A stretch of DNA of 64,000 nucleotides from contig CM000431.1 in the NCBI GenBank assembly GCA_000165345.1, positions 608,001-672,000 on the forward strand. The letters are read 5' to 3'. Of the stretch, positions 4,637-53,523 are shown piece after piece. Positions within the stretch are counted from its first letter, which is position 1. Every line of letters begins with the position of its first letter. A program made the position numbers and the translations under genes. The notes under the pieces are model-generated. The model made no database searches. It was not told the DNA's origin and saw only the letters and a list, made by a program, of their open reading frames with translations.

Positions 4637-6838
4637 TTATAGAAAAGTTAATGATAGTGCTAGTATTAAGGGTGATAGTAATCCTATCAGCAAATGTTTG
4701 AACATTGTTGATTTCAAGCACCTATCATCCCTAAATAAATGAAATAAATTTTCCGTAAAAATTTCATAAAAATTCTTCCCGTTGTAATTACACATATTTT
4801 TTTCTATTTTAATTTCCACCCAACTGATCCACTGCAAAATAGGGATACTTTTAATTATTTTATACTGTTTTGAAACCTGGTCAAAACCATCCAATGATAA
4901 CCTATTACAGAAATTATTTATCTCTGCTGAAAAATATTGTTTATTACGACAAAATATCTCGTTCCCTAAAACGGAGTTCCAAATAGATGCAGAATTTTTC
5001 GCTTTGCTAATATCGAAACCAAGATTATAAATAAAATGTTTTGAATTTAAAATATTTGCAATATCTATCAAAAAATATCTTGTCTTCATTGCTATTTTTG
5101 ATAAAATACATGCATAGTAGTCTCCTTTCTTTTTATAACAACAAAAATTTAATAAAATCACCAGGAAAATTGTCCAGATTATAAATTTTCGAAAAGCTGA
5201 AGAATCCATGATAAAAATAATAAATAGAATGATGGGAATAATAAAAACCAAAATGCTGAAATTTTTTGTTGAAAGAATAATTGAGAAGGCAATTAGAAAT
5301 ATTTTATTCATTATCTTAATAGAATTAATAATATCTTTGTATGCGCTACTATTCTTTTGAACATTAAATAGTTTAATGAATATATTAATGCTTGAAGTAA
5401 CAAAAAATGTGATGAAGAAGACCACAAAAGTTAATGCAATAAACAAGGGCCACAAGTTTGTATATTCGGATTCAGATAAATTGGAGCAATCAAATAAAGA
5501 ATTACCAATTTTATCAAATAAATGCACAACCAAGAGTATTATTGGAGCAGTTATTGAAATCAAACAAGCTATTAGAATAATTCCAATAAGTAGAATACTG
5601 CTTTCTTTTGATATTTGTGCTAATATTCCGATCGAAAATGATATTAACATCAGAATAATTGGGACTAAATAAATACCAAAGTTTAGTGTTGAAAAATATG
5701 ATGTAAAATAGTATTTGTTACTTGATTGATGCAATTCATCATGAAGGTTACTTTGAATCTTAACAATACCTTCTAAAAATTTATAAATCTCAAATTGTTG
5801 AATTGGAAATATTGAAATGAACTCGTTCGCATCATTGCTGTCCTTAAAATGATCCCAAATTTCATTATTCGCTATCGAAAATTCATCAACCAAAGAAAGT
5901 GTAAATGAATTGATATTATTTTGCAAAAATCGACTGTGAGGTTTATACGATCCTTTATTAAACGCTTGCCTGAAGCAATTATTTGGCAAATTAATGGTTT
6001 TTAAAAGCTTACCTTGCAATTGAATCCCAAAAATTCCTTGTAATTATAGATATAGGAGGATAGGTGAAGCTTGATTCAACTTCCCTAATAACAGAATTGG
6101 GGAAATCTTGATTAGTTTGTAGTCCATCCATAGATTCTACTAAAAGTTAGAAATTAACATACATGATTGAATCAACTTACCGATGTCAATAAAGACTCTT
6201 GTTGGAGTTAACGATAATATTTCAATACAAATTGCAGTTCGTATTCTACCATTGTATTTTAGCAGTCTTTGGTCAATTGCCAGATCCTTCAGAAATGAGT
6301 TAATTCCCATTGAATTTGGAATGTTCGAATCCGTAAAAAGTAGAATTATGTCTTTCGAAGTCCAGTAAATCTTTTCAAAATGTTTGGAAAGAGGAATAAT
6401 TAAGCCTGCTGCACTACCCAGTTCATCTTTTCCATCTTTATATTTCCATGGAAAGGAAATAGAAATTATTATTACTTCTGAAGAATCGCCTCTTTTTGAT
6501 GGAACTACAGCTGCAATATACCCGGAACTTAAGAGGTATAAATCTTTATATCTGTATGAAGAGAAGTTTTTATTTTTTATTATATCAATGTCTCCAGAAT
6601 CATCGCATTCAATGCAGTGAGTGTCCCTTGCGATAGAATTAATTATGCTTTGCGCAACCAATTCAGCGTTACCCGATTTTTGAGAAGTTAGTATCTCTTG
6701 GGTTACTTTCTTATATTCAAGTACGATGCTGCGGTCAACTGTAGCCTTATTTACTCCTTCAGAAAACCCACTTTCTTTTACTTGCGTAACTTTATCAAAG
6801 CCTGGAAGAGATAAAAGAAATAAAACCCCAATAAGCAA
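4637..6838 (-). CDS. GAA1: GPI-anchor transamidase component GAA1 (GPAA1). Three exons: complement(6181..6838, 6013..6139, 4637..5969).
   Basis: Two track ORFs (6140..6838 and 4637..6019) are joined by two micro-introns of 41 and 43 nt, with donors GTAAGT and GTAAGC and acceptors TTTTAG and TTCAG. Exon 1 has an N-terminal signal anchor and a luminal domain matching GPAA1 (KHFEKIYWTSKDIILLFTD vs [21 protein letters not shown]). The C-terminal half is multi-pass membrane. Reading phase is conserved across both junctions and the total is 706 codons. Confidence 0.6.
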
Positions 6839-11936: not shown

Positions 11937-14900
11937 CTAATGTTTAGCAATTCCTATTGCGTCTAAAACTATATCCCAACAGTAATTATCTATTATATTG
12001 TTAATGCATTGTTCAAACGAATATCTAACAGTATCTTCCCTCAAAGCAGTAAACTTTTCCAGATTAGTGAAAATAATTTTCAATTCATCCTGATCTATAT
12101 AGTAAGTCTCACTTTCTATTAATCTCGTGGCAAACTTCATGTATTGACTTGAAATGGTTATTATAGACTTGAGTGCATGCCATATATCTGTCACAATCTG
12201 TTCTTCATATGCTGAAAAGATTAATTGTAGATTTTCATTGGTATTGAGCAAGTAAGCATCAAAATAATTTCTAATCTTATAGAGTGGCTTCTTTCCAATT
12301 ATTACACATTTTGTAAGAGCTGATATTTCAATCAGTGTATTTGGTAGAAGAGGAGCATAAAATAGCTTCTTTGCAGCAGATATAGCCAGACTATTAATGG
12401 CAGATACATGATCTGAACGATGAAATAATAAATCTCCAGCTTTATATTTATTTTCTTGCAAGCGATTTATTAGATACATTGTGCATTTTAGTGATTGCAA
12501 TATGTTTCCGCTAGACTCTAATTTATAAATTATTGCCTCGAGCAACCAATTCAGCGGTATCCCCAATTTATCGACTAAGAACTTCCACTTTTCATCATTT
12601 AAGTAATCTTCGGGATTAGAATAATCGGGATTCTCTTGTATATTTCTCATAATAACGCAATTAAGAAGATAATAAAAGTCTGAGTTCATATTAGTATGCA
12701 TTATGATAAAAACTGCCCATTCCCACAAACCAAGAATTTCTAGTTCCTCTATAAGTATTAAGTTTAATTTATTTGTAGGTGTAATCTCATTACTATTGCA
12801 GATACTGTTGTGATAGAACGTGAGGGCCCTTGCAATTAGCCAATTAAATGAAGAGAATTTGATAGAGCCGAAGTTGTTCAATCGAAATAGCTCTACCTGT
12901 CTAGAATTTTCATCGCCAAAGAAGAATTTAATTATTTGAAATTGTATCTGCTCAAATACTTGTTTTTTGCCTACCTCTGATGGACTTATGTTAATAGGAT
13001 CATCTGAATCAATTAATTTTCCCAATTTTTGTGTATTATCAATTAAAGAGGCGTTTTTCATTTTTAGTAACCTTTCACCAAGCTTTGAATTTGTTGAATA
13101 ATTTGCAGATAGGAATACGTTATTTTGCCATTCGTATAAAAAACCATCCGCAGATGCATCTATATTAGATATTGTTTTGTATATTCTATTTGAATAAGAA
13201 GTTAGATCCGAAACAAGACCGATTTTTGACCACCACTGCATGTTTTCCATCATCTGCAAAATAGACGTTTTATTATTTCCAATGGACAAGAACAACGACG
13301 CAGTCCTTGGAATCGTCAAATATGATAAACTTGGGCCATTTCTAACTAGATCAAGTAAGTTTCCGTTTACAATATTATTCAAGAGAAGGCTAATTCTTTC
13401 TTCATGTAAACATTGAGAATTTTGTTTGTCATCACCAAACCTAATCACTGGAATGTCATTAATCACAATCTTCATCCACCAGGAAATCAGTTCTCTTAAA
13501 TTAGACTCGAAACGCTTTTCAGATGGATTATTCAAATTTTTAATTATTAATTCCATTATTCCACCAACCAAACCAAATGTTTGTTCAAAATATTTTAATC
13601 GCTCAAAATTTAAAGAATTAAACTTGAATCCAGATAAATGCGAATAAATTTCAACTTCATTTTTTGTTATGCTCCACAGGAGGAAAATAAGTTTTATTAT
13701 TGATTCGATTGAAACTCCAGAACAATTATTACTTGTTTTATTTCCTATTATCTCAAAATATAGCCTAAACCAGGCAGAAATCAACCTTCGGGAATAACCC
13801 AAATTGTTTATTGAATCTTTAGTTACGGATCCTGTCAGGTTATTTATTCTTAATAGAGTAATCGATGTGTTATAGTCGCTAACACCTTGAATATCTTTAC
13901 GAAATGATCTATGTGGTACTACAACAAAACTATTTGAGCCAATATACATACCACTTCTGAAACAGATTCCATTATAAGCAGATTTCTTTAAGCTATTGTC
14001 TTTTTCCACAATGCTTTTAATTTCTGAGTACAAACTAAAATTATATTGGCTCTTCATTACAAAAAAATGACCTTTATACTGTTCTTGTTTAGAACTTCGA
14101 AGAAAATGATTTTCCTGGTCGGAGACATTAAAATTAGTTTCTTTTGTCGCAAGAGCACTACAAGGTTCTTTAAAGTGAGATAAAGAATTATCTTCACTCA
14201 AAAAACCATATTTAGAAAAATGTGTGACCTCAAATTTCCATTCCCAGGTAATAGTATCAAGCGAAATAAATCTTGCACCCATTTGCTCTGTGTAAGACTT
14301 AATTTGTTTAACACGATTACTGTTAAATTCGTCTATCTCTTGTGGATCTTTAGAGGGTATAGCTCTCTTTGGTTTGCAATTCTTGAGTGTTATAATAGCT
14401 TTTTTATTTAATCCTTCGCCAATTGGAATAGAGGAGTCTCCATCACCATATACCGACACACATAGAGGTTCAATGGAAACAACTGAATCAAGATTAATCC
14501 CACGTAAATCAGTAACTCCAGGCCAAACGATCTCCCCAACTCCTTCTCTAACTATTTTGAAGTCTTCCACGACGGCAAGTCTCTCTTCTGAAAATGTTTT
14601 TAATAATTCTATTGATGGAATACAAAAGTAGTCATGCTTGGTGAGTATTGGGGTCAGGGATTCAATAACAAATTCTTTTTGCTTCCTTATATAGGACTTA
14701 ACTAGATCAGATGGGATGCTATCTATCAACTGATCTGGCCTTCTAGTAATAGGTCTAGGTGTTGTAAGACCAATGGAGCTACGTGCCTGACGTTCATTAC
14801 TAACAGCCGAAATAGAATTTACTGAGTTTCTATGTTGGTTTAAATATGGAGTTCTTGCTGCATTATTACTTTCATTAACTACCCTACCAATTGAAGTTCT

Positions 14901-17354
14901 GCAATCATCACTTTTGGAAATTTGCACATCCTGCGAAATACGTGAAATTGAATCGAGGTTTATCAATGGCTTTGAACTATCAGAACTTGACTTATTCTCA
15001 ATTTTTGAGGCTCTTGGGGAGAAAGTAGCTGAACTAGAATCATCTATTGCATCTTCAAATGTTTCGTCTAAAGGGACAAACTTTGTAGTATGAGATGTAG
15101 TAAATACCAAGGACCTAGTTTTGGAATTTGTAGGTGAATTTCCATTTTGTTCTGGAGACTGTACCGCGTCAAAGAACTGTTGTTGACGCTCAAGCAAGTT
15201 TAGGAATGCTGCAGGAGTCTGAGGATCCATAGTTTTCTCAATGCGCCTAACGGAAGTTAAAAGAGCAGTATTATGTCTCGCACTCTCGGTTGCAACCGCA
15301 GGAAGAGCCAGTTCTGATGAATTTGTAATTCTTTCGTGAGAAACGTGACTTAAGTTATCGAGTTGGTATCTATTAGAACGAGAAATAAATTGTGGTAGAG
15401 GTTTCCAGAGCCATAGTGACTTTCCTCTTTCATTCGAATCAGAATACTTTGAATTCTGAACAATTGGCTTAGGAAGCACACTATTGATTAATTTGTTTGA
15501 AGAAAGCCCATTGCCTAAAACAATTGACGAGTTTTGATTTGAAGGCTTTCCAGATTGCCCACCACCAAGTATATTCTGTAGCTGAATTGAGCTATTATTC
15601 AGTTGAGAATTTCCTGGTAAATTTGTTTGACCAATTGCAGAATTCGAAACCCCAGAAGTCAAAGATGACCATGATTGATTAGGAGGATTAACGCTTGAGA
15701 ATCCAAATGACTGAGATAAAGAAGTTGATTGGCCAAATAAGCTTGAACTGGATGCGTTTGCATTATTGTTATTCAGCGTATTCTGAGGTTGAGTGGAACT
15801 AAATAGACTATTTGGAGAGTTACTAAACAAGCCTGACGAGCTAGGCAGCGTTGAACCAAATAAGCTTGTAGATAAATTAGCTCCACTTGTACTACCAGAA
15901 CCTGCACCCAAATTAGAGCCACTTAATGTTTGATTACTACCAAATAATGGCTTCATTGAAAGCGAAGAATTTGACAAAGAAATTTGAGGTTGAGTATTTG
16001 AATTTGAATTAAAAAGAGTCAAGCTGGCACTATTTGAAGTTGTCGAACTCCCCCCAAACAAGGAACCAGAAGTCTTTAGAGAGCTATCTAGTGATCCTAA
16101 ATTGGATGGCTGCCCAAACAAATTACCACCGTTTAAACTGCTAATACTTGTACCTAAGTTGTTGCTGTTATTACTATTATTAATAATACCATTATTGCTA
16201 TTGCTAGAGAATAAACTGGGAGTGGAGAATAATCCTGAGTTTGAACCACTCGTTGAAGATTGAAGTGGAAATGAATTTGTATTGTTCGAAGCACCAAATA
16301 ATCCATTATTTGATACAAACTGAGTATTACCTATGTTTGATTGAGAGTTTTGAAGCCCCTGACCTAGAATTGAAGTTTGGCCCAAACCTGAGGACGAGCC
16401 ACTAGAACCGAAAAGAGAGTTTTGTGGTGTCGTTGATGATATAAAAGATGACTGAGGTTGTCCAAAAATTGAGTTTGAGATAGAAGGTCCTTGGGAGTTA
16501 GAAGCAAACCCGCCAGCGTTAGAAAATGAGCTATTCCCAAAACTATTGGTGCTTGTGGTAAAATTCGTATTGATGGATGATAAACTATTTGCAGGCCCTC
16601 TTTTTTCTTGATAATCTTCCCATCTAAGCTCTTCAACTGACTTTTTCTGATCAATGTCCTTCTGATATACAATAGACATGATTCTGGCATCGCTATCTCT
16701 ATCGACTACGGGTTGAAATGTAATCCCATTTGTGCCTTTCTTTGCCCCAAAAATATTCGAATTTGTTCCCATAGTGCCTCCGAAGGGCGAAGCTGAGGTG
16801 TTACCAAAAGTCTGAATGGGCATTGACCCAAAAAGACCACTATTGTTTTGTTGCCCAAAAAAGCTTGATGGGTTGCTTTGAGATGACTGGCTTCCAAAGC
16901 CTCCAGAAGTTCCAAATGAGTTTTGAAAAGAGCCAAAGCCTCCAGAGTTATTTGCCGAGCTAGAATTAAAAAACCCAGAGCTAGAACCTATCGTAGAAGA
17001 GGAACTTGAGCCAAACATAGTTGGTTGTGTAGAACTTATTTGCTGATTACCTCCAAACGTACTCATTGATTGGCCAAATAAGCCATTGGAAGATTGACCA
17101 AAAACTGAAGATTGCCCAGTATTTCCAAACCCGGAATTAGAAGAGCCAGTACTTCCAAATAGCCCAGGGCTCGCATTTCCTCCAAATAGGGAAGTTGATG
17201 AATTAAACAATCCCGTTGAAGCCGGTTGTACCGTATTAATATTTTGTGATACCCCTTGCTGGCCGATCCCAACTCCAAAAGAGTTGGATGTTCCAAATAA
17301 TCCTCCAGAAGACTGTTGGTTTTGGTTTGAACCAAACCCTCCTCCACCAAGCAT
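11937..17354 (-). CDS. Nup98-Nup96 nucleoporin precursor. N-terminal GLFG/FG repeats, an autoproteolytic domain ending in HF|SKY, then a Nup96-like alpha-solenoid.
   Basis: Single 1805-aa ORF. The first ~600 aa are FG/GLFG low-complexity. The motif ...KFEVTHFSKYGFL is the Nup98/Nup145 self-cleavage site and lies at about 14205..14225. The C-terminal ~900 aa are helical and Nup96-like. Confidence 0.85.
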   Translation of the reverse strand: MLGGGGFGSNQNQQSSGGLFGTSNSFGVGIGQQGVSQNINTVQPASTGLFNSSTSLFGGNASPGLFGSTGSSNSGFGNTGQSSVFGQSSNGLFGQSMSTFGGNQQISSTQPTMFGSSSSSTIGSSSGFFNSSSANNSGGFGSFQNSFGTSGGFGSQSSQSNPSSFFGQQNNSGLFGSMPIQTFGNTSASPFGGTMGTNSNIFGAKKGTNGITFQPVVDRDSDARIMSIVYQKDIDQKKSVEELRWEDYQEKRGPANSLSSINTNFTTSTNSFGNSSFSNAGGFASNSQGPSISNSIFGQPQSSFISSTTPQNSLFGSSGSSSGLGQTSILGQGLQNSQSNIGNTQFVSNNGLFGASNNTNSFPLQSSTSGSNSGLFSTPSLFSSNSNNGIINNSNNSNNLGTSISSLNGGNLFGQPSNLGSLDSSLKTSGSLFGGSSTTSNSASLTLFNSNSNTQPQISLSNSSLSMKPLFGSNQTLSGSNLGAGSGSTSGANLSTSLFGSTLPSSSGLFSNSPNSLFSSTQPQNTLNNNNANASSSSLFGQSTSLSQSFGFSSVNPPNQSWSSLTSGVSNSAIGQTNLPGNSQLNNSSIQLQNILGGGQSGKPSNQNSSIVLGNGLSSNKLINSVLPKPIVQNSKYSDSNERGKSLWLWKPLPQFISRSNRYQLDNLSHVSHERITNSSELALPAVATESARHNTALLTSVRRIEKTMDPQTPAAFLNLLERQQQFFDAVQSPEQNGNSPTNSKTRSLVFTTSHTTKFVPLDETFEDAIDDSSSATFSPRASKIENKSSSDSSKPLINLDSISRISQDVQISKSDDCRTSIGRVVNESNNAARTPYLNQHRNSVNSISAVSNERQARSSIGLTTPRPITRRPDQLIDSIPSDLVKSYIRKQKEFVIESLTPILTKHDYFCIPSIELLKTFSEERLAVVEDFKIVREGVGEIVWPGVTDLRGINLDSVVSIEPLCVSVYGDGDSSIPIGEGLNKKAIITLKNCKPKRAIPSKDPQEIDEFNSNRVKQIKSYTEQMGARFISLDTITWEWKFEVTHFSKYGFLSEDNSLSHFKEPCSALATKETNFNVSDQENHFLRSSKQEQYKGHFFVMKSQYNFSLYSEIKSIVEKDNSLKKSAYNGICFRSGMYIGSNSFVVVPHRSFRKDIQGVSDYNTSITLLRINNLTGSVTKDSINNLGYSRRLISAWFRLYFEIIGNKTSNNCSGVSIESIIKLIFLLWSITKNEVEIYSHLSGFKFNSLNFERLKYFEQTFGLVGGIMELIIKNLNNPSEKRFESNLRELISWWMKIVINDIPVIRFGDDKQNSQCLHEERISLLLNNIVNGNLLDLVRNGPSLSYLTIPRTASLFLSIGNNKTSILQMMENMQWWSKIGLVSDLTSYSNRIYKTISNIDASADGFLYEWQNNVFLSANYSTNSKLGERLLKMKNASLIDNTQKLGKLIDSDDPINISPSEVGKKQVFEQIQFQIIKFFFGDENSRQVELFRLNNFGSIKFSSFNWLIARALTFYHNSICNSNEITPTNKLNLILIEELEILGLWEWAVFIIMHTNMNSDFYYLLNCVIMRNIQENPDYSNPEDYLNDEKWKFLVDKLGIPLNWLLEAIIYKLESSGNILQSLKCTMYLINRLQENKYKAGDLLFHRSDHVSAINSLAISAAKKLFYAPLLPNTLIEISALTKCVIIGKKPLYKIRNYFDAYLLNTNENLQLIFSAYEEQIVTDIWHALKSIITISSQYMKFATRLIESETYYIDQDELKIIFTNLEKFTALREDTVRYSFEQCINNIIDNYCWDIVLDAIGIAKH
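15500..17354 (-). repeat. Coding low-complexity FG/GLFG repeat region of the Nup98 moiety.
   Basis: Many repeated GLFG, FGxxS and SxFG units. They generate spurious shadow ORFs on the same strand in other frames (16364..16690, 16706..16936, 17063..17350). Confidence 0.7.
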
Positions 17355-17449: not shown

Positions 17450-18540
17450 CTAAATCTTTTTTTTTAGTGCTCTTTCTCGGATATATTTGGTCTGTGATAT
17501 TCTTATTTTATTCCAAATTGGTCGAGGGATCATATTTGCCTGAATACAAAGTATCAAAAAGTAGTTACACTCTTTATTTTACTTACTATTAATAGTTGTA
17601 TTCGATGACCAAAATAAGGAACAACCGTCGAGTAAACCGATGGAGTTTTTTTAAGCATCTTTATAGATTCAACAGAAAACCTAAGAAACCAATCAAGATG
17701 CTATAAAAATAATAGCTTACTACTTACCTTTTTGTTGAAATTGTGAACAAGGTTTCTCTTTTGGCTTTTGATAGTTTAGTGGTAACTAGTAAAGGAGTAT
17801 GGCATTGGATTGTGATATTCTCGGACTCACATTCCGCTCGTAAACTTCTACATAGAGATTCGGCGACACTTTTTGTAGCGGCATACGCGGAATAGAGAGG
17901 GTCAGTCTGAAGCTGTGACGACCCACTTCCTATACACAAAATGGCTCCCCGATCCCTAAGCATATGCATTATTTATTTAGTAAAGTTTGAAAGCACTACT
18001 CACCTCTTTTTCATGTAGCTGTAAACAATGCGAGTCATCATTAATACAGACCTAACATTCACTTCTATTAATTCATTAATTAGATCCAAACTAGTCTCTT
18101 CAAAATATTGTGCATACGGATATGAGATGCCAACATTATTTATTAGAATCCCAACATCATCAATTGAATTCAAATATCCGCAAAAATTTGAGTAACAAGT
18201 CGGGTCAGTAAAATCCATTAAATAATACCTTATTTCTTGATTTGAATCTGGTTTTTTCAAGGATAGCAACTAGGGCAAGAATTAGTATTTTTGAAGCATA
18301 TTTAAAGCTTACCTCATTTACAACATTTTGCAGCTTTTCTCTATTTCTTCCTATTAAAATTAAGTTTAAATCTTCTTTAAACAATTCCTTTGCCATTGCT
18401 TTTCCAATTCCGTCGCTTGCGCCAGTTATAATTGCCCAACTTCCAAATGAAGTAAGTTTTTTCTCAGGTCTGTTGAGCAAGAGAAATAATTTGTTTATGG
18501 CCATAGAAAGATAATTCATTATTAATTTAATAAAATTCAA
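17450..18540 (-). CDS. Very-long-chain 3-oxoacyl-CoA reductase (KAR/HSD17B12/IFA38 family SDR). Five exons: complement(18313..18540, 18004..18269, 17728..17955, 17587..17680, 17450..17539).
   Basis: Three track fragments lie in different frames. Four micro-introns of 43, 48, 47 and 47 nt rejoin them, with donors GTAAGC, GTGAGT, GTAAGT and GTAAGT. SDR motifs: TGASDGIGK, NNVG, and YSAYAATK (YxxxK). The C-terminus ...IPRPIWNKIRISQTKYIRERALKKKI matches the KAR tail (LPSWIYLKIVMNMNKSTRAHYLKKTKKN). Total 302 codons. Confidence 0.65.
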
Positions 18541-38048: not shown

Positions 38049-38338
38049 TTTTTCTTCTGCCGTTATTTCAACACGCGCAAGTATCCCTTAAAAAAAAAAA
38101 AAATCAAATCATCAAGTATAAAAATTAATATTTTTTACAATTTAGAATAGAAAGTTCTCAACAAATACGTGATGAATTATAAATCAATAGATAGATCAAT
38201 TAAAAGACTATATTGGGAAATGCTAAATATCGCCAAATTATCTTTGGCTAGGCAATACTATTATTTCGAAATGTAGCCACTTTAATTAATTACGTCATAA
38301 ATAACTATACCTTTCTAAACTGATGGTTATGGAGACGC

Positions 38339-38411
38339 GGCCTCGTCGTCTAATGGATATGACGTTGGTCTTCGGAACCAAAGGTTGTGGGTTCGAGTCC
38401 CATCGGGGTCG
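38339..38411 (+). tRNA. tRNA-Arg, anticodon UCG.
   Basis: GGCCTCGTCGTCTAATGGATATGACGTTGGTCTTCGGAACCAAAGGTTGTGGGTTCGAGTCCCATCGGGGTCG folds as a 73-nt cloverleaf. It has a 7-bp acceptor stem with two G-U pairs, a D-loop with GG, a 5-bp anticodon stem (TTGGT/ACCAA) and the anticodon loop CTTCGGA, giving anticodon TCG. The T-arm is GTGGG-TTCGAGT-CCCAT. There is no intron. Confidence 0.85.
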
Positions 38412-38436
38412 TTTATTCCGTTTTTAAATTTATTGT

Positions 38437-39750
38437 TTAGGTAATGTAATTCCCCGATTGAAATACCTGTTGTAATGAGCTATATTCCTTTTGTAGTCTA
38501 GCTGCATTTTTAGATTTTTTTTCACGTTTCGATTGAGTTTTCAATAACTCTACAACGGTTTTGCGAAGCCTTTTAGTGTCTACGTGAAAATAAGGACAGC
38601 CATCCATGTTTTCATTCGCATAATCTTCGTCATCTTCAAAGAGGAACCTAGACTCTGTTGAATCAATAGAATCTAGTACCTGACACTTTAATAGCTTATT
38701 TTTAAGCCGCTCATATAATATAGAAATGCGGTCTGAAATGTGCATATTTTTTTTTGTAATTCTAGTTAGTGCCAATCTGATCCTTGACCAAAGAGTTGTA
38801 AGGGGAATGTGCGCAGAGAGTAGTTTTGGCCAGTCGTTATATTTAATTTCGTCTATGTGAGAATAGTTATATCTGGTTTCATAAAGATAATTTACGGCTT
38901 GAGAAAATGTGTTAGAAATGAGGGACAAGGCCTGTTCATCTTGAATATATTTGAGCTTTGGATAGAGAGAAGAAACATACCTTAAGCGAATTTGTCCTTG
39001 GCTTATTTTCCCATAAAAATTGGATAGATCAGTTCCATCTATAGGTTGAAGATTAATACCTAACTTTTCGTTTATCTTTCTGCAACATTTTTTCCAAAAA
39101 TAAATAAACTCTGTAGGAAAATTTGGGGAGCAAAGTGATTCAATAATTGTCTTCCATGAAATTCCTTTGAATGGGAGAAATTTTCCAGTATAGCGTTCAA
39201 TGCAATAAAGTACAAATACGTCAATTACAAAAGGCATTTTTGATTTAAGCGGTTTTTCAATCTGGGAATTAAGATTTAAAATATATCCTGAATCATTCGA
39301 GTCATTTTCAACAATTTTTGTATGTAAATCACGCCATTTGTCCCTAATAGAGGCTGCTGATCTTCCAATAAATTCAACAAACATGCTCCATTTCTTCCCA
39401 TGTTCATTAACGAGTTTAATAAGTTCTTGCTCCTCTTCTTTTGTCCACTTTCCCTTTTTTCCTCGCATTAGCATCCTTTTTGCGCAATAATATATCGACT
39501 GAAGCGACCTATTTGGTAGAGACTCTCCAATAATTGGCCAATGTCTGTCTTTTTTCCCACCCCTTGTAGAAAATAAATTATCTAACCCTTCATCCCAGTT
39601 CCATTGTTGAGACTTTATGTAGTCTTTAACTGAATTATTAATTATATCTCTCTCGCTTGAGCTGAACTTTCCCTTTAATATATTTCGATTATTTAAATGA
39701 TCGTTCCAACTTCTTGTTTGAAATATATTACTTGCCATGTTCGTTTTCAC
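38437..39750 (-). CDS. Myb/SANT-like DNA-binding domain protein (Reb1/TTF-I/DMTF1-like).
   Basis: The 437-aa ORF has tandem Myb-like repeats with regularly spaced Trp: W..IGESLPNRSLQSIYYCAKRM, then KWTKEEEQELIKLVNEHGKKWSMFVEFIGRSAASIRDKWRDL. Confidence 0.55.
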   Translation of the reverse strand: MKTNMASNIFQTRSWNDHLNNRNILKGKFSSSERDIINNSVKDYIKSQQWNWDEGLDNLFSTRGGKKDRHWPIIGESLPNRSLQSIYYCAKRMLMRGKKGKWTKEEEQELIKLVNEHGKKWSMFVEFIGRSAASIRDKWRDLHTKIVENDSNDSGYILNLNSQIEKPLKSKMPFVIDVFVLYCIERYTGKFLPFKGISWKTIIESLCSPNFPTEFIYFWKKCCRKINEKLGINLQPIDGTDLSNFYGKISQGQIRLRYVSSLYPKLKYIQDEQALSLISNTFSQAVNYLYETRYNYSHIDEIKYNDWPKLLSAHIPLTTLWSRIRLALTRITKKNMHISDRISILYERLKNKLLKCQVLDSIDSTESRFLFEDDEDYANENMDGCPYFHVDTKRLRKTVVELLKTQSKREKKSKNAARLQKEYSSLQQVFQSGNYIT

Positions 39751-49917: not shown

Positions 49918-52900
49918 ATGTCAAACAATACTTTTGAGGAAGTCCCAATTAGGGGCACAATTAAATTACTGCATGATAAGCTTTCTTTGCTATTCCGTTT
50001 GAGTATCTTAGAATCTACTGAGATCCTTCTAGAAATTGATGAGTCAATTTCAAAATGTGACGGCTATTGTATCTCATCTTGCGCAGAAGTTATTGTTCCA
50101 CCAATAATCATGGCAATTCACAATTGTATAAGGAATAAACTTCATCCAACTAATGAATTAAGTGGTTCGAATCATAACAAAAATTTAAATACGAAATCTT
50201 CTCTGCAATTGGAAGAACTATTAAAAATTCTCTTGAATGTCTTGCAAAAAATGAATTCAAAGACATCAAAAATCATTTTTAGTCGCATATCAAATGCTTT
50301 TTTTGATATACTTTACGTAATAACTGAAGTTCTACGTATATTTATTTACGAAAGAAATGAATTTATTATTGAATATAGTATTAAAATTGCACATCTAGAC
50401 TTTAATATTTTTTGGGAATATTGGGAACATAAAAATACAAATACGAATATAAATCAACATCTAATTATCCCTGTAATTATACAATTTTTATTATCAATAG
50501 CAATTCCCAGCAAAAATGAATTCAATTATTCAAAAGAAACCCAAACTTTAGCTCTAAAGTTATTATCTGAAATTCCAGGCATTATTGAAAATAATGATTT
50601 ATTAATAAAAGTGTACCCTGGAGTTATTCAAAGATTAAGCATACAACTAATTAATTCTATTGAGAAAGGTAGCTCCAAAAAACTAATAGAATTATCATTA
50701 TTTGCAATAATTGAATGGATAAGTAATTGTCTTTCTAACTTGAATCATGAAACGAAAAATATCTGCTCGAACATGGAAAATATTAAAAACACAGCTAAAA
50801 TATTGAACTATATTATCAAGTATAAAACATTAGAATTGAACTTAGATTGCTCATATAAAAGTGGTAATATAAATTATTTAAATGATAGCGTATGCATGTT
50901 AAAAGTTAAATCACTTTTCGCAAGTATTACAAGAATGTGTTTTACAGATTTATTTGATATTTTTTACGATAGCTTTGACGAACTTTTAATAACTTCTCTT
51001 GACTTTTTAATTTCATTGAAATCCGAAGGCAATTATAATAATCCACTAATTGATAATGTTCTTAATTCGATTTCAAAAAATCAAAGTAACAGAAAGATGA
51101 GGTCATTTTTTTCAAATTATTCTCGAAAGTTTGGAATTAATTTTGATCAAAGTAACACGGAAAAATTTACTTCGGTTGAACTTAATGAAGAAAATAATTT
51201 AACAGACTTTATTCGTAAACTAACTTTATATATTGGCTTCCATAAAACAGAAAATCAATTTTTTAAGCATATAATTTCCACATTTTGTGCAGAAAAAGCC
51301 TTCAACTTTTTTCTTATCATACTAATATCTAATCTAAACCTAACAATGTACGAAAAATCAATTAAAGATTCAAAGAAAAATTTTAGCTTCAATTTTAAAA
51401 ACCGATCGTTAAATAAGGAAAATTATATTCTGAAAGCAATCGATTTAACAGAAAGAACGAGCAATAATATATTCCAAAACTATTCTTATAATATTCCAAA
51501 TAAGAATGAGAGTATTATATCCAATGACAAACTGGAAGCTTTTCAGCTATATGGTGACTTATTCACCTTAACTTTTTTCAATATTAAGAGATTTGGGTTT
51601 GAGAAATCAAAAATGATTTCAAGCTTATTTATTAAATCAATTTCAATTTCAATATTAGATTTGAACTATGAAAAAATGGAGTGTAAATATATTCTTCAAT
51701 GTATTACGCAACATTTTGTAAAACTTTGTAATAGTGAGAGAGATAAACATATTCCTTTACAACATTTTATTTTATATATCTTAGTATGTAATGCCACGCA
51801 ACTCATTTTAAATCAATCAGTATTTGGCAATCCTCTATATAACGAACTGCCGAATTTTGAAACAAAAAATTTGCCAAATATTATAATTAGTTGGTTCAAC
51901 TTTGCTATTGAGGAATTAAGTATAGAACTTATTCAAGAGAGTATGTCAAATTATACAGAAATTAATAGAAATATTTTATTAATTCTTCTGGGAAATCTAC
52001 TATTAATTGCGAGAAATATTGGATTAGATGGAGAAATTTTTATTAAAAAACTTAATAAAGTCATAACGCAATTAATATCACTATATGGCTATGGCTCACC
52101 AATTACGAAGAAAATTGCAGCTTATATTCTAAACCAAATTTTTCTAATGTTAGGTTATTCATCATATAAATTTTCAATTAATACGATTATTAATGAATAT
52201 TCTCTTGAAATCATTAGGTCACTAGAAATTATGTACTATAAAGGCTATTCCGAGGAAAAAGTTGATCTAATCTTGACGGCTCTTCAGCATTGTAAATTGG
52301 GATTCATTTTGGAACTATCAGATTTAATTGAAAAGTTTAATGATATAAATATAAATAATAATCCTTGGATATTTGAATTTATTGCAATAATCACAAAACG
52401 TATAGCAAACTGCATTCTAACATATTGGGATAATTTTTCCTTTCATAAGATATTCAAGAACGCACAAATTTCTGCTTTCAAACAGAAACTTGAATCTTTC
52501 CAAACATTAAATACCACAATTAAAGAAATATACTATGAATATTTCTTAGATTATATAACTTCACAAGAGAATGACATTCCTAACTTTTATCCAACACAAA
52601 ATTTTATAAATAGTATTAAAAGCCAAAATATAGATCATTTAGATCTTTTTGAACAGGAATTACTGGAGGAAATTGATATTTCTAATGAAATTTCAAAAAT
52701 TCGTAAAGTTATTGAAAGAATGATTAATATTATCTATTCATATACATCAGAGAGTGATGAGAAGAATTTTAGCATTCAGGATCATCGATATTTGTCTACA
52801 TATTCATTATTAAATTGTATTTTTATACTTTCCACTGAGACAACTTGTTTATTTCCCTACGCAAATATGATAATTCCTGGGATAATTAATCAATGGATGG

Positions 52901-53523
52901 CTATAATAAGCAACATAAGAAGCGATAACTTTGAAAAATCTAAAATTGAAGCAATCAAATCACGTGAGCTTTGCCAAACAAATATTATTGTAATACAATT
53001 AATCATTTCATGCACTGAATTTGCAATTAAAGTTCTAGAAGACAAATTAATTCCATTGATTACAGAATTTATTGAATTTATTTTTTCAAGCCATGAAGCC
53101 ATTACACTTATGGATGATAGAGAGTCAGAATTAAATTCGGAATTTCAAAAAATGTGTATATCTACATTAGAAGTTCTCTACTATTTCACCAAATTTTACC
53201 TTAAATTGAATTCAGCTGAAATCAAGTTTGAAACGTTAAACAACATAGTAAACTTACTAATATCTCCAATTAATTCGTTCCTTTCAGTTAAATGGAGAAT
53301 TGTTGTCTCAAAAACCATATTTCATATATATTTTAAATTCCCATGTATTATTAATTCCAAGTTAATCGTTCAAAGTAAAAACTATAACACAACATGCCTA
53401 AAAGAAATAGTTATCATGATTAAATTAGCGGAAAATAACTTAACTGCAATTTTTAACAATATTAGTATTATTTCTGAAACTCGAGGAGAATTTAATTTAA
53501 AGTTGAAAATTAACAAATTTTAG
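49918..53523 (+). CDS. Large hypothetical protein; predicted helical-repeat.
   Basis: 1201-aa uninterrupted ORF, Leu/Ile/Asn-rich, with no recognisable catalytic motif. Confidence 0.4.
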   Translation: MSNNTFEEVPIRGTIKLLHDKLSLLFRLSILESTEILLEIDESISKCDGYCISSCAEVIVPPIIMAIHNCIRNKLHPTNELSGSNHNKNLNTKSSLQLEELLKILLNVLQKMNSKTSKIIFSRISNAFFDILYVITEVLRIFIYERNEFIIEYSIKIAHLDFNIFWEYWEHKNTNTNINQHLIIPVIIQFLLSIAIPSKNEFNYSKETQTLALKLLSEIPGIIENNDLLIKVYPGVIQRLSIQLINSIEKGSSKKLIELSLFAIIEWISNCLSNLNHETKNICSNMENIKNTAKILNYIIKYKTLELNLDCSYKSGNINYLNDSVCMLKVKSLFASITRMCFTDLFDIFYDSFDELLITSLDFLISLKSEGNYNNPLIDNVLNSISKNQSNRKMRSFFSNYSRKFGINFDQSNTEKFTSVELNEENNLTDFIRKLTLYIGFHKTENQFFKHIISTFCAEKAFNFFLIILISNLNLTMYEKSIKDSKKNFSFNFKNRSLNKENYILKAIDLTERTSNNIFQNYSYNIPNKNESIISNDKLEAFQLYGDLFTLTFFNIKRFGFEKSKMISSLFIKSISISILDLNYEKMECKYILQCITQHFVKLCNSERDKHIPLQHFILYILVCNATQLILNQSVFGNPLYNELPNFETKNLPNIIISWFNFAIEELSIELIQESMSNYTEINRNILLILLGNLLLIARNIGLDGEIFIKKLNKVITQLISLYGYGSPITKKIAAYILNQIFLMLGYSSYKFSINTIINEYSLEIIRSLEIMYYKGYSEEKVDLILTALQHCKLGFILELSDLIEKFNDININNNPWIFEFIAIITKRIANCILTYWDNFSFHKIFKNAQISAFKQKLESFQTLNTTIKEIYYEYFLDYITSQENDIPNFYPTQNFINSIKSQNIDHLDLFEQELLEEIDISNEISKIRKVIERMINIIYSYTSESDEKNFSIQDHRYLSTYSLLNCIFILSTETTCLFPYANMIIPGIINQWMAIISNIRSDNFEKSKIEAIKSRELCQTNIIVIQLIISCTEFAIKVLEDKLIPLITEFIEFIFSSHEAITLMDDRESELNSEFQKMCISTLEVLYYFTKFYLKLNSAEIKFETLNNIVNLLISPINSFLSVKWRIVVSKTIFHIYFKFPCIINSKLIVQSKNYNTTCLKEIVIMIKLAENNLTAIFNNISIISETRGEFNLKLKINKF

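What the first reader, a model, noticed from the sequence alone, without database searches (positions are those of the whole stretch)
14205..14225. Nup98-Nup96 polyprotein with a conserved HF|SKY autoproteolytic site
One 1805-aa ORF carries the GLFG-repeat Nup98 moiety, the autoproteolytic domain and a Nup96-like C-terminus. The motif THFSKYGF is the catalytic cleavage site. The organism therefore probably makes two nucleoporins by self-cleavage, as metazoa and yeast Nup145 do. This matters for pore-evolution arguments in a divergent protist.
Basis: partly seen in the sequence, partly recalled or inferred. Interest (0 to 1): 0.5.

Follow-up and report, generated by a model that had tools for sequence, protein, structure and literature searches.

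The report
Cryptosporidium Nup98-Nup96 nucleoporin precursor gene
This is the ordinary, already annotated Cryptosporidium parvum gene for the Nup98-Nup96 nuclear-pore precursor, and it keeps the self-cleavage site (His-Phe|Ser) that animals, fungi and Toxoplasma use to make two pore proteins from one chain.

Summary
Window 11937..17354 (minus strand) is one 1805-aa ORF. Bases 14205..14225 encode THFSKYG, and HFSKY is aa 1045-1049.

The protein is identical to C. parvum Iowa II EAK89079.1, named "nucleoporin, FG-rich motifs within N-terminal region" and, in UniRef, "Peptidase S59 domain-containing protein". Its parts are:
- Two FG/GLFG repeat regions, with 28 FG in the first 550 aa.
- A GLEBS motif between them.
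- A linker.
- A full-length Nup98 autoproteolytic domain (Pfam PF04096, E 8e-37) that ends exactly at HF|S. Its predicted fold matches human Nup98 (TM 0.82-0.86).

HFS is kept in all 11 Cryptosporidium orthologues and in 116 of 120 homologues. It is absent only from Babesia-type proteins that have no Nup96 part.

Self-cleavage at F1046|S1047, giving about 110 and 88 kDa products, is the most likely mechanism. It is inferred, not shown. The one caveat is that a lysine common in other eukaryotes (KPxxGxGLN) is Ser975 here and is non-lysine in every apicomplexan examined.

The gene is already known and of low interest.

The parts
11937..17354 (-). Complete single-exon ORF of the Nup98-Nup96 precursor: 1805 aa, about 198 kDa, stop codon at 11937..11939.
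   Evidence: The sequence is identical to C. parvum Iowa II EAK89079.1. Orthologues of 1769-1935 aa in 11 Cryptosporidium species cover 93-100% of the query.
16740..17354 (-). N-terminal FG/GLFG repeat region, aa 1-205, with 18 FG. It is rich in Ser, Gly, Phe, Asn and Gln.
16590..16739 (-). GLEBS-like motif, aa 206-255 (ITFQPVVD...KSVEELRWEDYQEKRGP), embedded between the FG regions. It is the predicted Rae1/Gle2 docking site.
   Evidence: A profile of the apicomplexan segments hits human Nup98 GLEBS chains, including 3mmy_B, at E 1.7e-5. The segment is 88% identical between C. parvum and C. muris, against 37-58% for the flanking FG regions. The Pfam PF21240 match is only 15 bits, below its cut-off of 27.
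15555..16589 (-). Second FG region, aa 256-600, with 10 FG. It is rich in Ser and Asn.
14637..15554 (-). Linker without FG repeats, aa 601-906. It contains short motifs conserved across the genus: SLWLWKPLPQF (646-656), ELALPAVATESARH (681-694) and DPQTPAAFLNLLERQQQFFDAVQSPE (710-735).
   Evidence: The motifs can be read in the orthologue sequences. The linker is 48% identical to C. muris. The function of the motifs was not tested.
14217..14636 (-). Nup98 autoproteolytic domain (peptidase S59), aa 907-1046, ending in His1045-Phe1046.
   Evidence: Pfam PF04096, E 8.3e-37, covering the full profile. phmmer against PDB Nup98 chains gives E 1e-19 to 4e-24. The AlphaFold model has pLDDT 86.3. Its top 22 Foldseek hits are all Nup98, Nup145N or Nup116 autoproteolytic domains, at E 1e-13 and TM 0.82-0.86.
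14406..14420 (-). GEGLN motif, aa 979-983. Leu982 and Asn983 are invariant across the family. Ser975, eight residues upstream, occupies the position that is Lys in most non-apicomplexan homologues.
14214..14222 (-). His1045-Phe1046|Ser1047. The predicted scissile bond lies between codons 14217..14219 (Phe) and 14214..14216 (Ser, the predicted nucleophile).
   Evidence: The tripeptide aligns with human HFS in 2q5x and 7f60. H, F and S are 94%, 100% and 93% conserved in the 54-sequence alignment. HFS is the experimentally required tripeptide in S. pombe and human (PMC4483485).
14199..14216 (-). SKYGFL, aa 1047-1052: the new N-terminus of the Nup96 product. It is predicted to stay bound as a beta-strand on the autoproteolytic domain.
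   Evidence: The model places a strand at aa 1048-1050. Ser and Tyr are nearly invariant. The role of Tyr-Gly-Leu in tail binding in human Nup98 (Sun & Guo 2008) is from my own knowledge.
13842..13979 (-). Beta-strand segment before the helical domain, aa 1126-1171, including CFRSG (the equivalent of the SFRVG motif of Nup96). It is a candidate Sec13 insertion blade.
   Evidence: The Arg of the motif is nearly invariant (alignment shown). The model has strands here, but with pLDDT below 50. The assignment as a Sec13-binding blade is an inference from Nup145C and Nup96 structures.
11940..13790 (-). Alpha-helical Nup96/Nup145C-type domain, aa 1189-1805, including the ELEILGLWEWAVFIIMH signature (GLWEWA at 12714..12731).

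Best explanation
The ORF is the Cryptosporidium parvum orthologue of the Nup98-Nup96 (yeast Nup145, Toxoplasma TgNup302) nucleoporin precursor.

Proposed mechanism:
1. After translation, the S59 autoproteolytic domain (aa 907-1046) folds and buries Phe1046 in its hydrophobic pocket. The hydroxyl of Ser1047 then attacks the Phe1046-Ser1047 peptide bond (N-O acyl shift), and the resulting ester is hydrolysed.
2. This releases a Nup98-like protein of about 110 kDa (aa 1-1046). It carries the FG/GLFG barrier repeats, a GLEBS site for Rae1/Gle2 and the pore-targeting domain.
3. It also releases a Nup96-like scaffold protein of about 88 kDa (aa 1047-1805). This product starts with SKYGFL, can re-bind the domain, and joins the outer-ring Y complex together with Sec13.

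Shown here: gene identity, domain architecture, folds and conservation of the motif. Inferred: the cleavage itself, the binding partners and the location in the pore.
For: - **Identity.** The protein is an exact match to annotated C. parvum nucleoporin records. Orthologues with the same architecture exist in 11 Cryptosporidium species and in coccidia.
- **Autoproteolytic domain.** Full-length Pfam S59 match at E 8.3e-37. Alignment to human Nup98 structures runs through HFSKYG. The predicted fold matches Nup98, Nup145N and Nup116 domains only, with TM up to 0.86.
- **Motif conservation.** HF[ST] is present in 116 of 120 homologues. The four exceptions are Babesia-type proteins that stop about 20 aa after the domain and have no Nup96 part, so the motif is kept wherever there is something to cleave off. 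H, F, S and Y are each at least 91% conserved, and the Asn of GLN is invariant.
- **Selective constraint.** The autoproteolytic domain is 71% identical to C. muris and the GLEBS segment 88%, against about 25% for the Nup96 part. This indicates strong constraint on these two modules.
- **Literature.** HFS is required for cleavage in S. pombe and human (PMC4483485). The serine-attack and acyl-shift mechanism, with the buried Phe, is described for Nup98 (PMC3210808). The Toxoplasma orthologue retains HFS and is handled in the literature as a separate C-terminal product, TgNup302C (PMC6062611, PMC10923651, PMC12407827).
Against: - I found no experimental evidence for two products in Cryptosporidium.
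- The Lys eight residues before the invariant Asn (KPxxGxGLN) is present in 79 of 109 homologues scored. It is Ser975 in C. parvum and non-Lys in all apicomplexan sequences examined. A preprint on Entamoeba Nup98 lists a Lys and an Asn with this spacing as catalytic residues. My mapping of that Lys onto this column is inferred from the spacing, not taken from the paper.
- Cleavage is not universal: trypanosome TbNup158 is not cleaved (PMC4758718).
- Cleavage is dispensable for viability in S. pombe, so selection for it could in principle be relaxed.
- I had no model coordinates, so the active-site geometry could not be inspected.
Confidence: 0.85

Rival explanations
1. The protein is a true Nup98-Nup96 orthologue but is not cleaved, or only inefficiently. 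It would enter the pore as one FG-plus-solenoid chain, as trypanosome TbNup158 does, with HFS kept for structural or binding reasons.
For: All apicomplexan domains lack the Lys of KPxxGxGLN, which one preprint treats as catalytic. TbNup158 shows that an uncleaved fusion can work. An uncleavable S. pombe fusion is viable.
Against: TbNup158 lacks the catalytic residues, whereas this protein keeps H, F, S, K and Y exactly. HFS is retained across Cryptosporidium species that are only about 25% identical in the Nup96 part. It is lost precisely in apicomplexans that have no C-terminal extension. Toxoplasma TgNup302 also lacks the Lys and is treated in the literature as giving a separate C-terminal product. 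H862 mutations only slightly reduce cleavage in human Nup98, which suggests the reaction depends mainly on backbone strain and the Ser nucleophile.
Confidence: 0.1
2. The two moieties are separated by a trans-acting protease or by separate transcripts, not by self-cleavage.
For: There is no direct evidence. Human and S. pombe additionally make a Nup98-only mRNA by alternative splicing.
Against: The ORF is continuous and intron-free, and it is annotated as one 1805-aa protein. The complete S59 domain with its nucleophile is sufficient for cleavage in homologues. No additional mechanism is needed.
Confidence: 0.03
3. HFSKY is a chance motif in a low-complexity protein, and the ORF is not a nucleoporin.
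For: None beyond the Ser- and Asn-rich composition of the N-terminal half.
Against: The expected number of HFSKY occurrences is 0.0002. The motif lies at the exact end of a Pfam domain match at E 8e-37. Both predicted folds match nucleoporins.
Confidence: 0.01

Closest known systems
Human NUP98-NUP96 precursor (UniProt P52948; structures 1ko6, 2q5x, 7f60)
   Different: The Nup96 part is very divergent: 12-14% identity, with sequence similarity detectable only around GLWEWA. The Lys of KPPVGEGLN is Ser here. The tail is SKYGF rather than SKYGL. The FG region has fewer FG repeats and is rich in Ser and Asn. No alternative Nup98-only transcript is evident.
Toxoplasma gondii TgNup302 (Nup98-96 homologue)
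   Same: It is an apicomplexan orthologue with FG repeats, an S59 domain, HFS and a Nup96 part in one ORF. It also lacks the Lys (Ala at that position). [quoted passage not shown]
   Different: TgNup302 is much larger (2894 aa), with long insertions in the Nup96 part. Its tail is HFSTYRF. Its GLEBS region is less similar (28% identity).
Saccharomyces cerevisiae Nup145 (Nup145N/Nup145C), S. pombe Nup189 and Chaetomium Nup145
   Different: Sequence similarity is lower than to the animal proteins (E 1e-9 to 1e-11). Yeasts have non-cleaving paralogues (Nup100, Nup116). Whether Cryptosporidium has paralogues was not examined.
Trypanosoma brucei TbNup158
   Same: It is an FG plus Nup96-type solenoid encoded in one chain of a divergent protist.
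   Different: TbNup158 lacks the catalytic residues and stays uncleaved (PMC4758718). The Cryptosporidium protein keeps them.
Babesia (piroplasm) Nup98-like proteins of about 1020-1050 aa
   Same: They are apicomplexan, with FG repeats plus an S59-fold domain and the GEGLN motif.
   Different: They have no Nup96 moiety and no HFS (PYFV or PCFV instead), and they end about 20 aa after the domain. Plasmodium Nup221 is likewise reported to lack the site.

Membership tests
Peptidase S59 / Nup98 autoproteolytic domain (Pfam PF04096) | Sequence match to the family profile above the curated threshold, over the whole domain | tested here: met
   127 bits against a cut-off of 28.4, E 8.3e-37, profile positions 2-148 of 148, aa 907-1051.
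Peptidase S59 / Nup98 autoproteolytic domain (Pfam PF04096) | Nup98 autoproteolytic-domain fold | tested here: met
   The AlphaFold model has pLDDT 86.3. Its 22 best Foldseek PDB hits are all Nup98, Nup145N or Nup116 domains, at E down to 1e-13 and target-normalised TM 0.82-0.86.
Peptidase S59 / Nup98 autoproteolytic domain (Pfam PF04096) | His-Phe-Ser/Thr tripeptide at the C-terminal end of the domain (Ser/Thr nucleophile, buried Phe) | tested here: met
   H1045-F1046-S1047 aligns with human HFS. These columns are 94%, 100% and 93% conserved.
Peptidase S59 / Nup98 autoproteolytic domain (Pfam PF04096) | Invariant Asn of the GxGLN motif | tested here: met
   N983 lies in GEGLN. L and N are invariant in 54 sequences.
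Peptidase S59 / Nup98 autoproteolytic domain (Pfam PF04096) | Lys eight residues before that Asn (KPxxGxGLN), listed as catalytic in one preprint | tested here: not met
   Ser975 in C. parvum. The position is S, P or T in other Cryptosporidium species, A or S in coccidia and E in a gregarine, and K in 79 of 109 homologues scored. The residue's necessity is uncertain, because Toxoplasma also lacks it. Equating this column with the preprint's K240 is my inference from the spacing.
Peptidase S59 / Nup98 autoproteolytic domain (Pfam PF04096) | Tail residues Lys/Arg-Tyr-Gly-Leu after the cleavage site, which bind back onto the domain | tested here: met
   The tail is SKYGF (Leu replaced by Phe). 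Tyr is 91% conserved. The model has a strand at aa 1048-1050.
Peptidase S59 / Nup98 autoproteolytic domain (Pfam PF04096) | Actual self-cleavage of the polypeptide | not testable with these tools
   This needs a western blot, in vitro translation or proteomics. No Cryptosporidium data were found in the literature search.
Nup98-type GLFG nucleoporin | N-terminal FG/GLFG repeat domain | tested here: met
   28 FG in aa 1-550, with 5 GLFG and 12 LFG. The region is rich in Ser, Gly, Asn and Gln.
Nup98-type GLFG nucleoporin | GLEBS (Rae1/Gle2-binding) motif embedded in the FG domain | tested here: met
   The apicomplexan segment profile hits human Nup98 GLEBS chains (3mmy_B, 4owr_B, 7vpg_B) at E about 2e-5. 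The single-sequence Pfam match is only 15 bits, below the cut-off of 27, and single-sequence phmmer is weak. Binding to Rae1 was not tested.
Nup96 / Nup145C (Pfam PF12110) | Sequence match above the curated threshold | tested here: met
   45 bits against a cut-off of 25, E 9.4e-12, but only profile positions 161-291 of 295. The signature ELEILGLWEWAVFIIMH is conserved.
Nup96 / Nup145C (Pfam PF12110) | Helical scaffold fold shared with Nup96 and Nup145C | tested here: met
Nup96 / Nup145C (Pfam PF12110) | N-terminal beta-strand insertion blade that completes the Sec13 propeller | tested here: inconclusive
   CFRSG aligns with the conserved SFRVG motif, and strands are predicted at aa 1143-1148 and 1164-1169, but with pLDDT below 50. 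No complex was modelled.

The most novel reading that the evidence does not exclude
Apicomplexan Nup98-96 autoproteolytic domains, including this one, have all replaced the Lys of the KPxxGxGLN motif (Ser975 here) while keeping HFS. They may therefore use a modified catalytic arrangement. Alternatively, they may cleave slowly or conditionally, leaving a functional pool of uncleaved 198-kDa fusion in the Cryptosporidium pore.
Probability: 0.1. Interest if true: 0.3.

Novelty: already known. Interest (0 to 1): 0.1.

Why it matters
The finding has little consequence beyond confirming the annotation. It shows that Cryptosporidium, like coccidia, retains the fused Nup98-Nup96 gene with an intact cleavage site. 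Piroplasms, and by published report Plasmodium, have an FG-plus-S59 protein without the site or the Nup96 part. This gives a useful data point for reconstructing apicomplexan pore composition, and a ready marker pair (Nup98 N-terminal and Nup96 C-terminal products) for tagging the Cryptosporidium pore. It does not change any argument about pore evolution, because the arrangement is widespread across eukaryotes and is already documented in Toxoplasma.

Tried and rejected
- **Word-indexed search with the Nup96 part alone.** It returned no hit at all, not even the Cryptosporidium orthologues. I take this to be a candidate-selection artefact and did not treat it as evidence of absence. I used the orthologues instead.
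- **GLEBS tests with a single sequence.** Pfam (15 bits, below threshold) and phmmer against the PDB (E 0.1-0.5, with a spurious PARP hit on top) were inconclusive. I replaced them with a profile of apicomplexan segments, which gave E about 2e-5.
- **Primary papers not held in the library.** These were Courjol 2017 on TgNup302, Rosenblum & Blobel 1999, Sun & Guo 2008 and Sampathkumar 2010. Mechanistic details therefore come from secondary citations or from my own knowledge, and are marked as such.
- **Residue at the Lys position in S. cerevisiae and S. pombe proteins.** These proteins are experimentally shown to cleave, but I could not obtain their sequences with the tools.
- **Active-site geometry.** Model coordinates are not exposed, so the position of Ser975 relative to Ser1047 could not be inspected.
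- **Chance motif and mis-called ORF.** Both were considered and rejected.

Full report
**Observation**

The window has about 30% G+C and carries closely spaced eukaryotic housekeeping genes. On the minus strand, 11937..17354 is one uninterrupted ORF of 1805 codons. Bases 14205..14225 translate to THFSKYG. HFSKY is aa 1045-1049 (14208..14222), and the full THFSKYGF occupies 14202..14225. From the protein's own composition, 0.0002 HFSKY and 0.18 HFS occurrences are expected, and exactly one HFS is present. The only correction is that the stated start coordinate cuts off the final Phe codon.

**Identity of the gene**

The translated ORF is identical, residue for residue, to C. parvum Iowa II EAK89079.1, named "nucleoporin, FG-rich motifs within N-terminal region". 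UniRef calls it "Peptidase S59 domain-containing protein". It is 97% identical to the C. hominis protein. Orthologues of 1769-1935 aa with the same two Pfam domains exist in ten further Cryptosporidium species. One of them, from C. felis, is named "nuclear pore complex protein Nup98-Nup96". The window is therefore C. parvum chromosomal DNA, and the gene is already annotated.

**Architecture**

Pfam gives three matches:
- PF04096 (Nup98-96 autopeptidase S59): E 8.3e-37, aa 907-1051, covering profile positions 2-148 of 148.
- PF12110 (Nup96): E 9.4e-12, aa 1469-1607.
- A sub-threshold GLEBS match.

The first 550 residues carry 28 FG dipeptides, and the whole protein has 5 GLFG and 12 LFG, in a Ser/Gly/Asn/Gln-rich context.

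Between the two FG blocks lies ITFQPVVD...KSVEELRWEDYQEKRGP. A profile built from the apicomplexan versions of this segment finds the human Nup98 GLEBS peptides crystallised with Rae1 (3mmy_B and relatives) at E about 2e-5. The segment is 88% identical between C. parvum and C. muris, far above the flanking repeats. I therefore accept it as a GLEBS motif, although binding was not tested.

**The autoproteolytic domain**

phmmer aligns aa 915-1064 with human Nup98 structures at E 1e-19 to 1e-22 and with the Dictyostelium protein at 4e-24. The alignment runs without a gap through F-x-V-x-HFSKYG. An AlphaFold model of aa 895-1075 has mean pLDDT 86.3. Its 22 best Foldseek matches in the PDB are exclusively Nup98, Nup145N and Nup116 domains, at E down to 1e-13 and target-normalised TM 0.82-0.86. 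The model also places aa 1048-1050 (Lys-Tyr-Gly) in a beta-strand, as expected for the tail that remains bound after cleavage.

In a 54-sequence alignment, the Leu and Asn of GEGLN, the Trp of WxF and Phe1046 are invariant. His1045, Ser1047 and Tyr1049 are 91-94% conserved.

Of the 120 best homologues, 116 have HF[S/T] at this position. The four exceptions are Babesia-type proteins of about 1020-1050 aa that read PYFV or PCFV, end about 20 residues later and have no Nup96 part. The motif is thus kept where there is a C-terminal moiety to release and lost where there is none. This is the pattern expected if its function is cleavage.

**The Nup96 moiety**

Foldseek agrees. The alignment also shows the conserved SFRVG-type motif (CFRSG here) just before the helical domain. 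In Nup145C and Nup96 this is where the strands that insert into Sec13 lie (my own knowledge of those structures). The model is low-confidence there, so this part is only suggestive.

**Mechanism**

The literature establishes the following:
- Human Nup98-Nup96, S. cerevisiae Nup145 and S. pombe Nup189 are made as one chain and cut themselves at HF|S. Ser-to-Ala mutation abolishes cleavage (PMC4483485).
- The chemistry is attack by the Ser hydroxyl on the preceding peptide bond, an N-O acyl shift and hydrolysis. The buried Phe imposes strain, and the His contributes only modestly (PMC3210808, citing Sun & Guo 2008 and Hodel 2002).

C. parvum has every element of the HF|SKYG context. I therefore infer cleavage between Phe1046 and Ser1047, giving products of about 110 kDa (Nup98-like) and 88 kDa (Nup96-like) from a 198-kDa precursor. 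By homology, the first product would supply FG barrier repeats and an mRNA-export docking site, and the second would be an outer-ring scaffold protein. These roles are inferred, not shown.

**Caveat found on the way**

In animals, plants, amoebozoans and stramenopiles the invariant Asn is preceded by KPxxGxGLN, and Lys holds that position in 79 of the 109 homologues scored. Every apicomplexan sequence has another residue there: Ser975 in C. parvum, Pro or Thr in other Cryptosporidium species, Ala or Ser in coccidia, Glu in a gregarine and Val or Ile in Babesia.

A 2026 preprint on Entamoeba Nup98 lists a Lys and an Asn eight residues apart as catalytic residues alongside His and Phe. From the spacing, I map these onto this Lys and the GLN Asn, but the paper does not give the human equivalents.

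Toxoplasma TgNup302 also lacks the Lys. It is nevertheless described as a homologue of autocatalytically cleaved Nup145 that retains the site, and its C-terminal product, TgNup302C, is used as a Y-complex marker. I therefore think the Lys is not essential. It does leave some room for slower or incomplete cleavage in this lineage.

Uncleaved fusions are viable in S. pombe and are the natural state in trypanosomes, which lack the catalytic residues. An uncleaved Cryptosporidium protein is therefore not impossible, only unlikely given the strict conservation of HFS.

**Comparison and novelty**

This is a member of the Nup98-Nup96/Nup145 family by every sequence and fold criterion I could test, with the single exception of the Lys noted above. 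Self-cleavage could not be tested with these tools.

The closest characterised relative is Toxoplasma TgNup302. The closest by motif and length is the metazoan precursor, which has an identical HFSKYG. The gene, its S59 domain and its nucleoporin nature are already in public annotation. I found no paper dealing specifically with the Cryptosporidium protein.

I rate it already known, with an interest score of about 0.1.

**Neighbourhood**

The flanking genes are unrelated housekeeping genes, and nothing suggests a functional cluster. They include:
- a cyclic-nucleotide phosphodiesterase
- a DBP10-type DEAD-box helicase
- a prenyltransferase beta subunit
- an M24 peptidase-like protein
- PP4R3
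- the Ufd2 ubiquitin-chain elongation factor (E4)
- a proteasome subunit
- a kinesin
- the RNA polymerase II largest subunit
- a diacylglycerol kinase
- one tRNA-Arg

Noticed in passing
window 17724..18540 (-): A short-chain dehydrogenase gene is split over three overlapping or adjacent ORFs in different frames. They cover Pfam adh_short profile positions 2-51, 48-126 and 123-193. This suggests two small introns, or frameshifts, directly upstream of the nucleoporin gene.
   Followed up: partly
window 4637..6838 (-): A Gaa1-like GPI transamidase N-terminus (6140..6838) is followed by a 460-aa ORF (4637..6019) with no Pfam hit. The sequence between them has a GTAAGT...TTTTAG pair at about 6140-6180, and there is another GTAAGC at about 6012. 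This is probably one gene with introns in an otherwise intron-poor genome.
   Followed up: partly
window 15150..15419 (-), aa 646-735 of the nucleoporin: The FG-free linker contains short motifs that are almost invariant across Cryptosporidium: SLWLWKPLPQF, ELALPAVATESARH and DPQTPAAFLNLLERQQQFFDAVQSPE. The first also appears in a eukprot transcript (YLWKPLPEM). They might be the counterparts of the linker motifs by which fungal Nup145N binds inner-ring nucleoporins.
   Followed up: no
homologues P0028, P0038, P0042, P0052 (Babesia-type proteins): Piroplasm Nup98-like proteins keep the S59 fold motifs (GEGLN, WxF) but have PYFV or PCFV in place of HFS. They end about 20 aa later with no Nup96 part. 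Where their Nup96 is encoded, if at all, was not examined.
   Followed up: partly
window 49918..53523 (+): A 1201-aa ORF in the most A+T-rich part of the window (26% G+C) has no Pfam match at E below 0.08.
   Followed up: no
window 38338..38412 (+): A single tRNA-Arg (anticodon TCG) lies about 25 bp from the stop-codon end (38437) of the convergently oriented minus-strand Myb-domain ORF 38437..39750.
   Followed up: no
(tool behaviour): The word-indexed protein search with the Nup96 half alone returned no hit, even though full-length orthologues with 89-96% identity in that half are in the same database. Negative results from that tool with divergent or low-complexity queries should be treated with care.
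   Followed up: no
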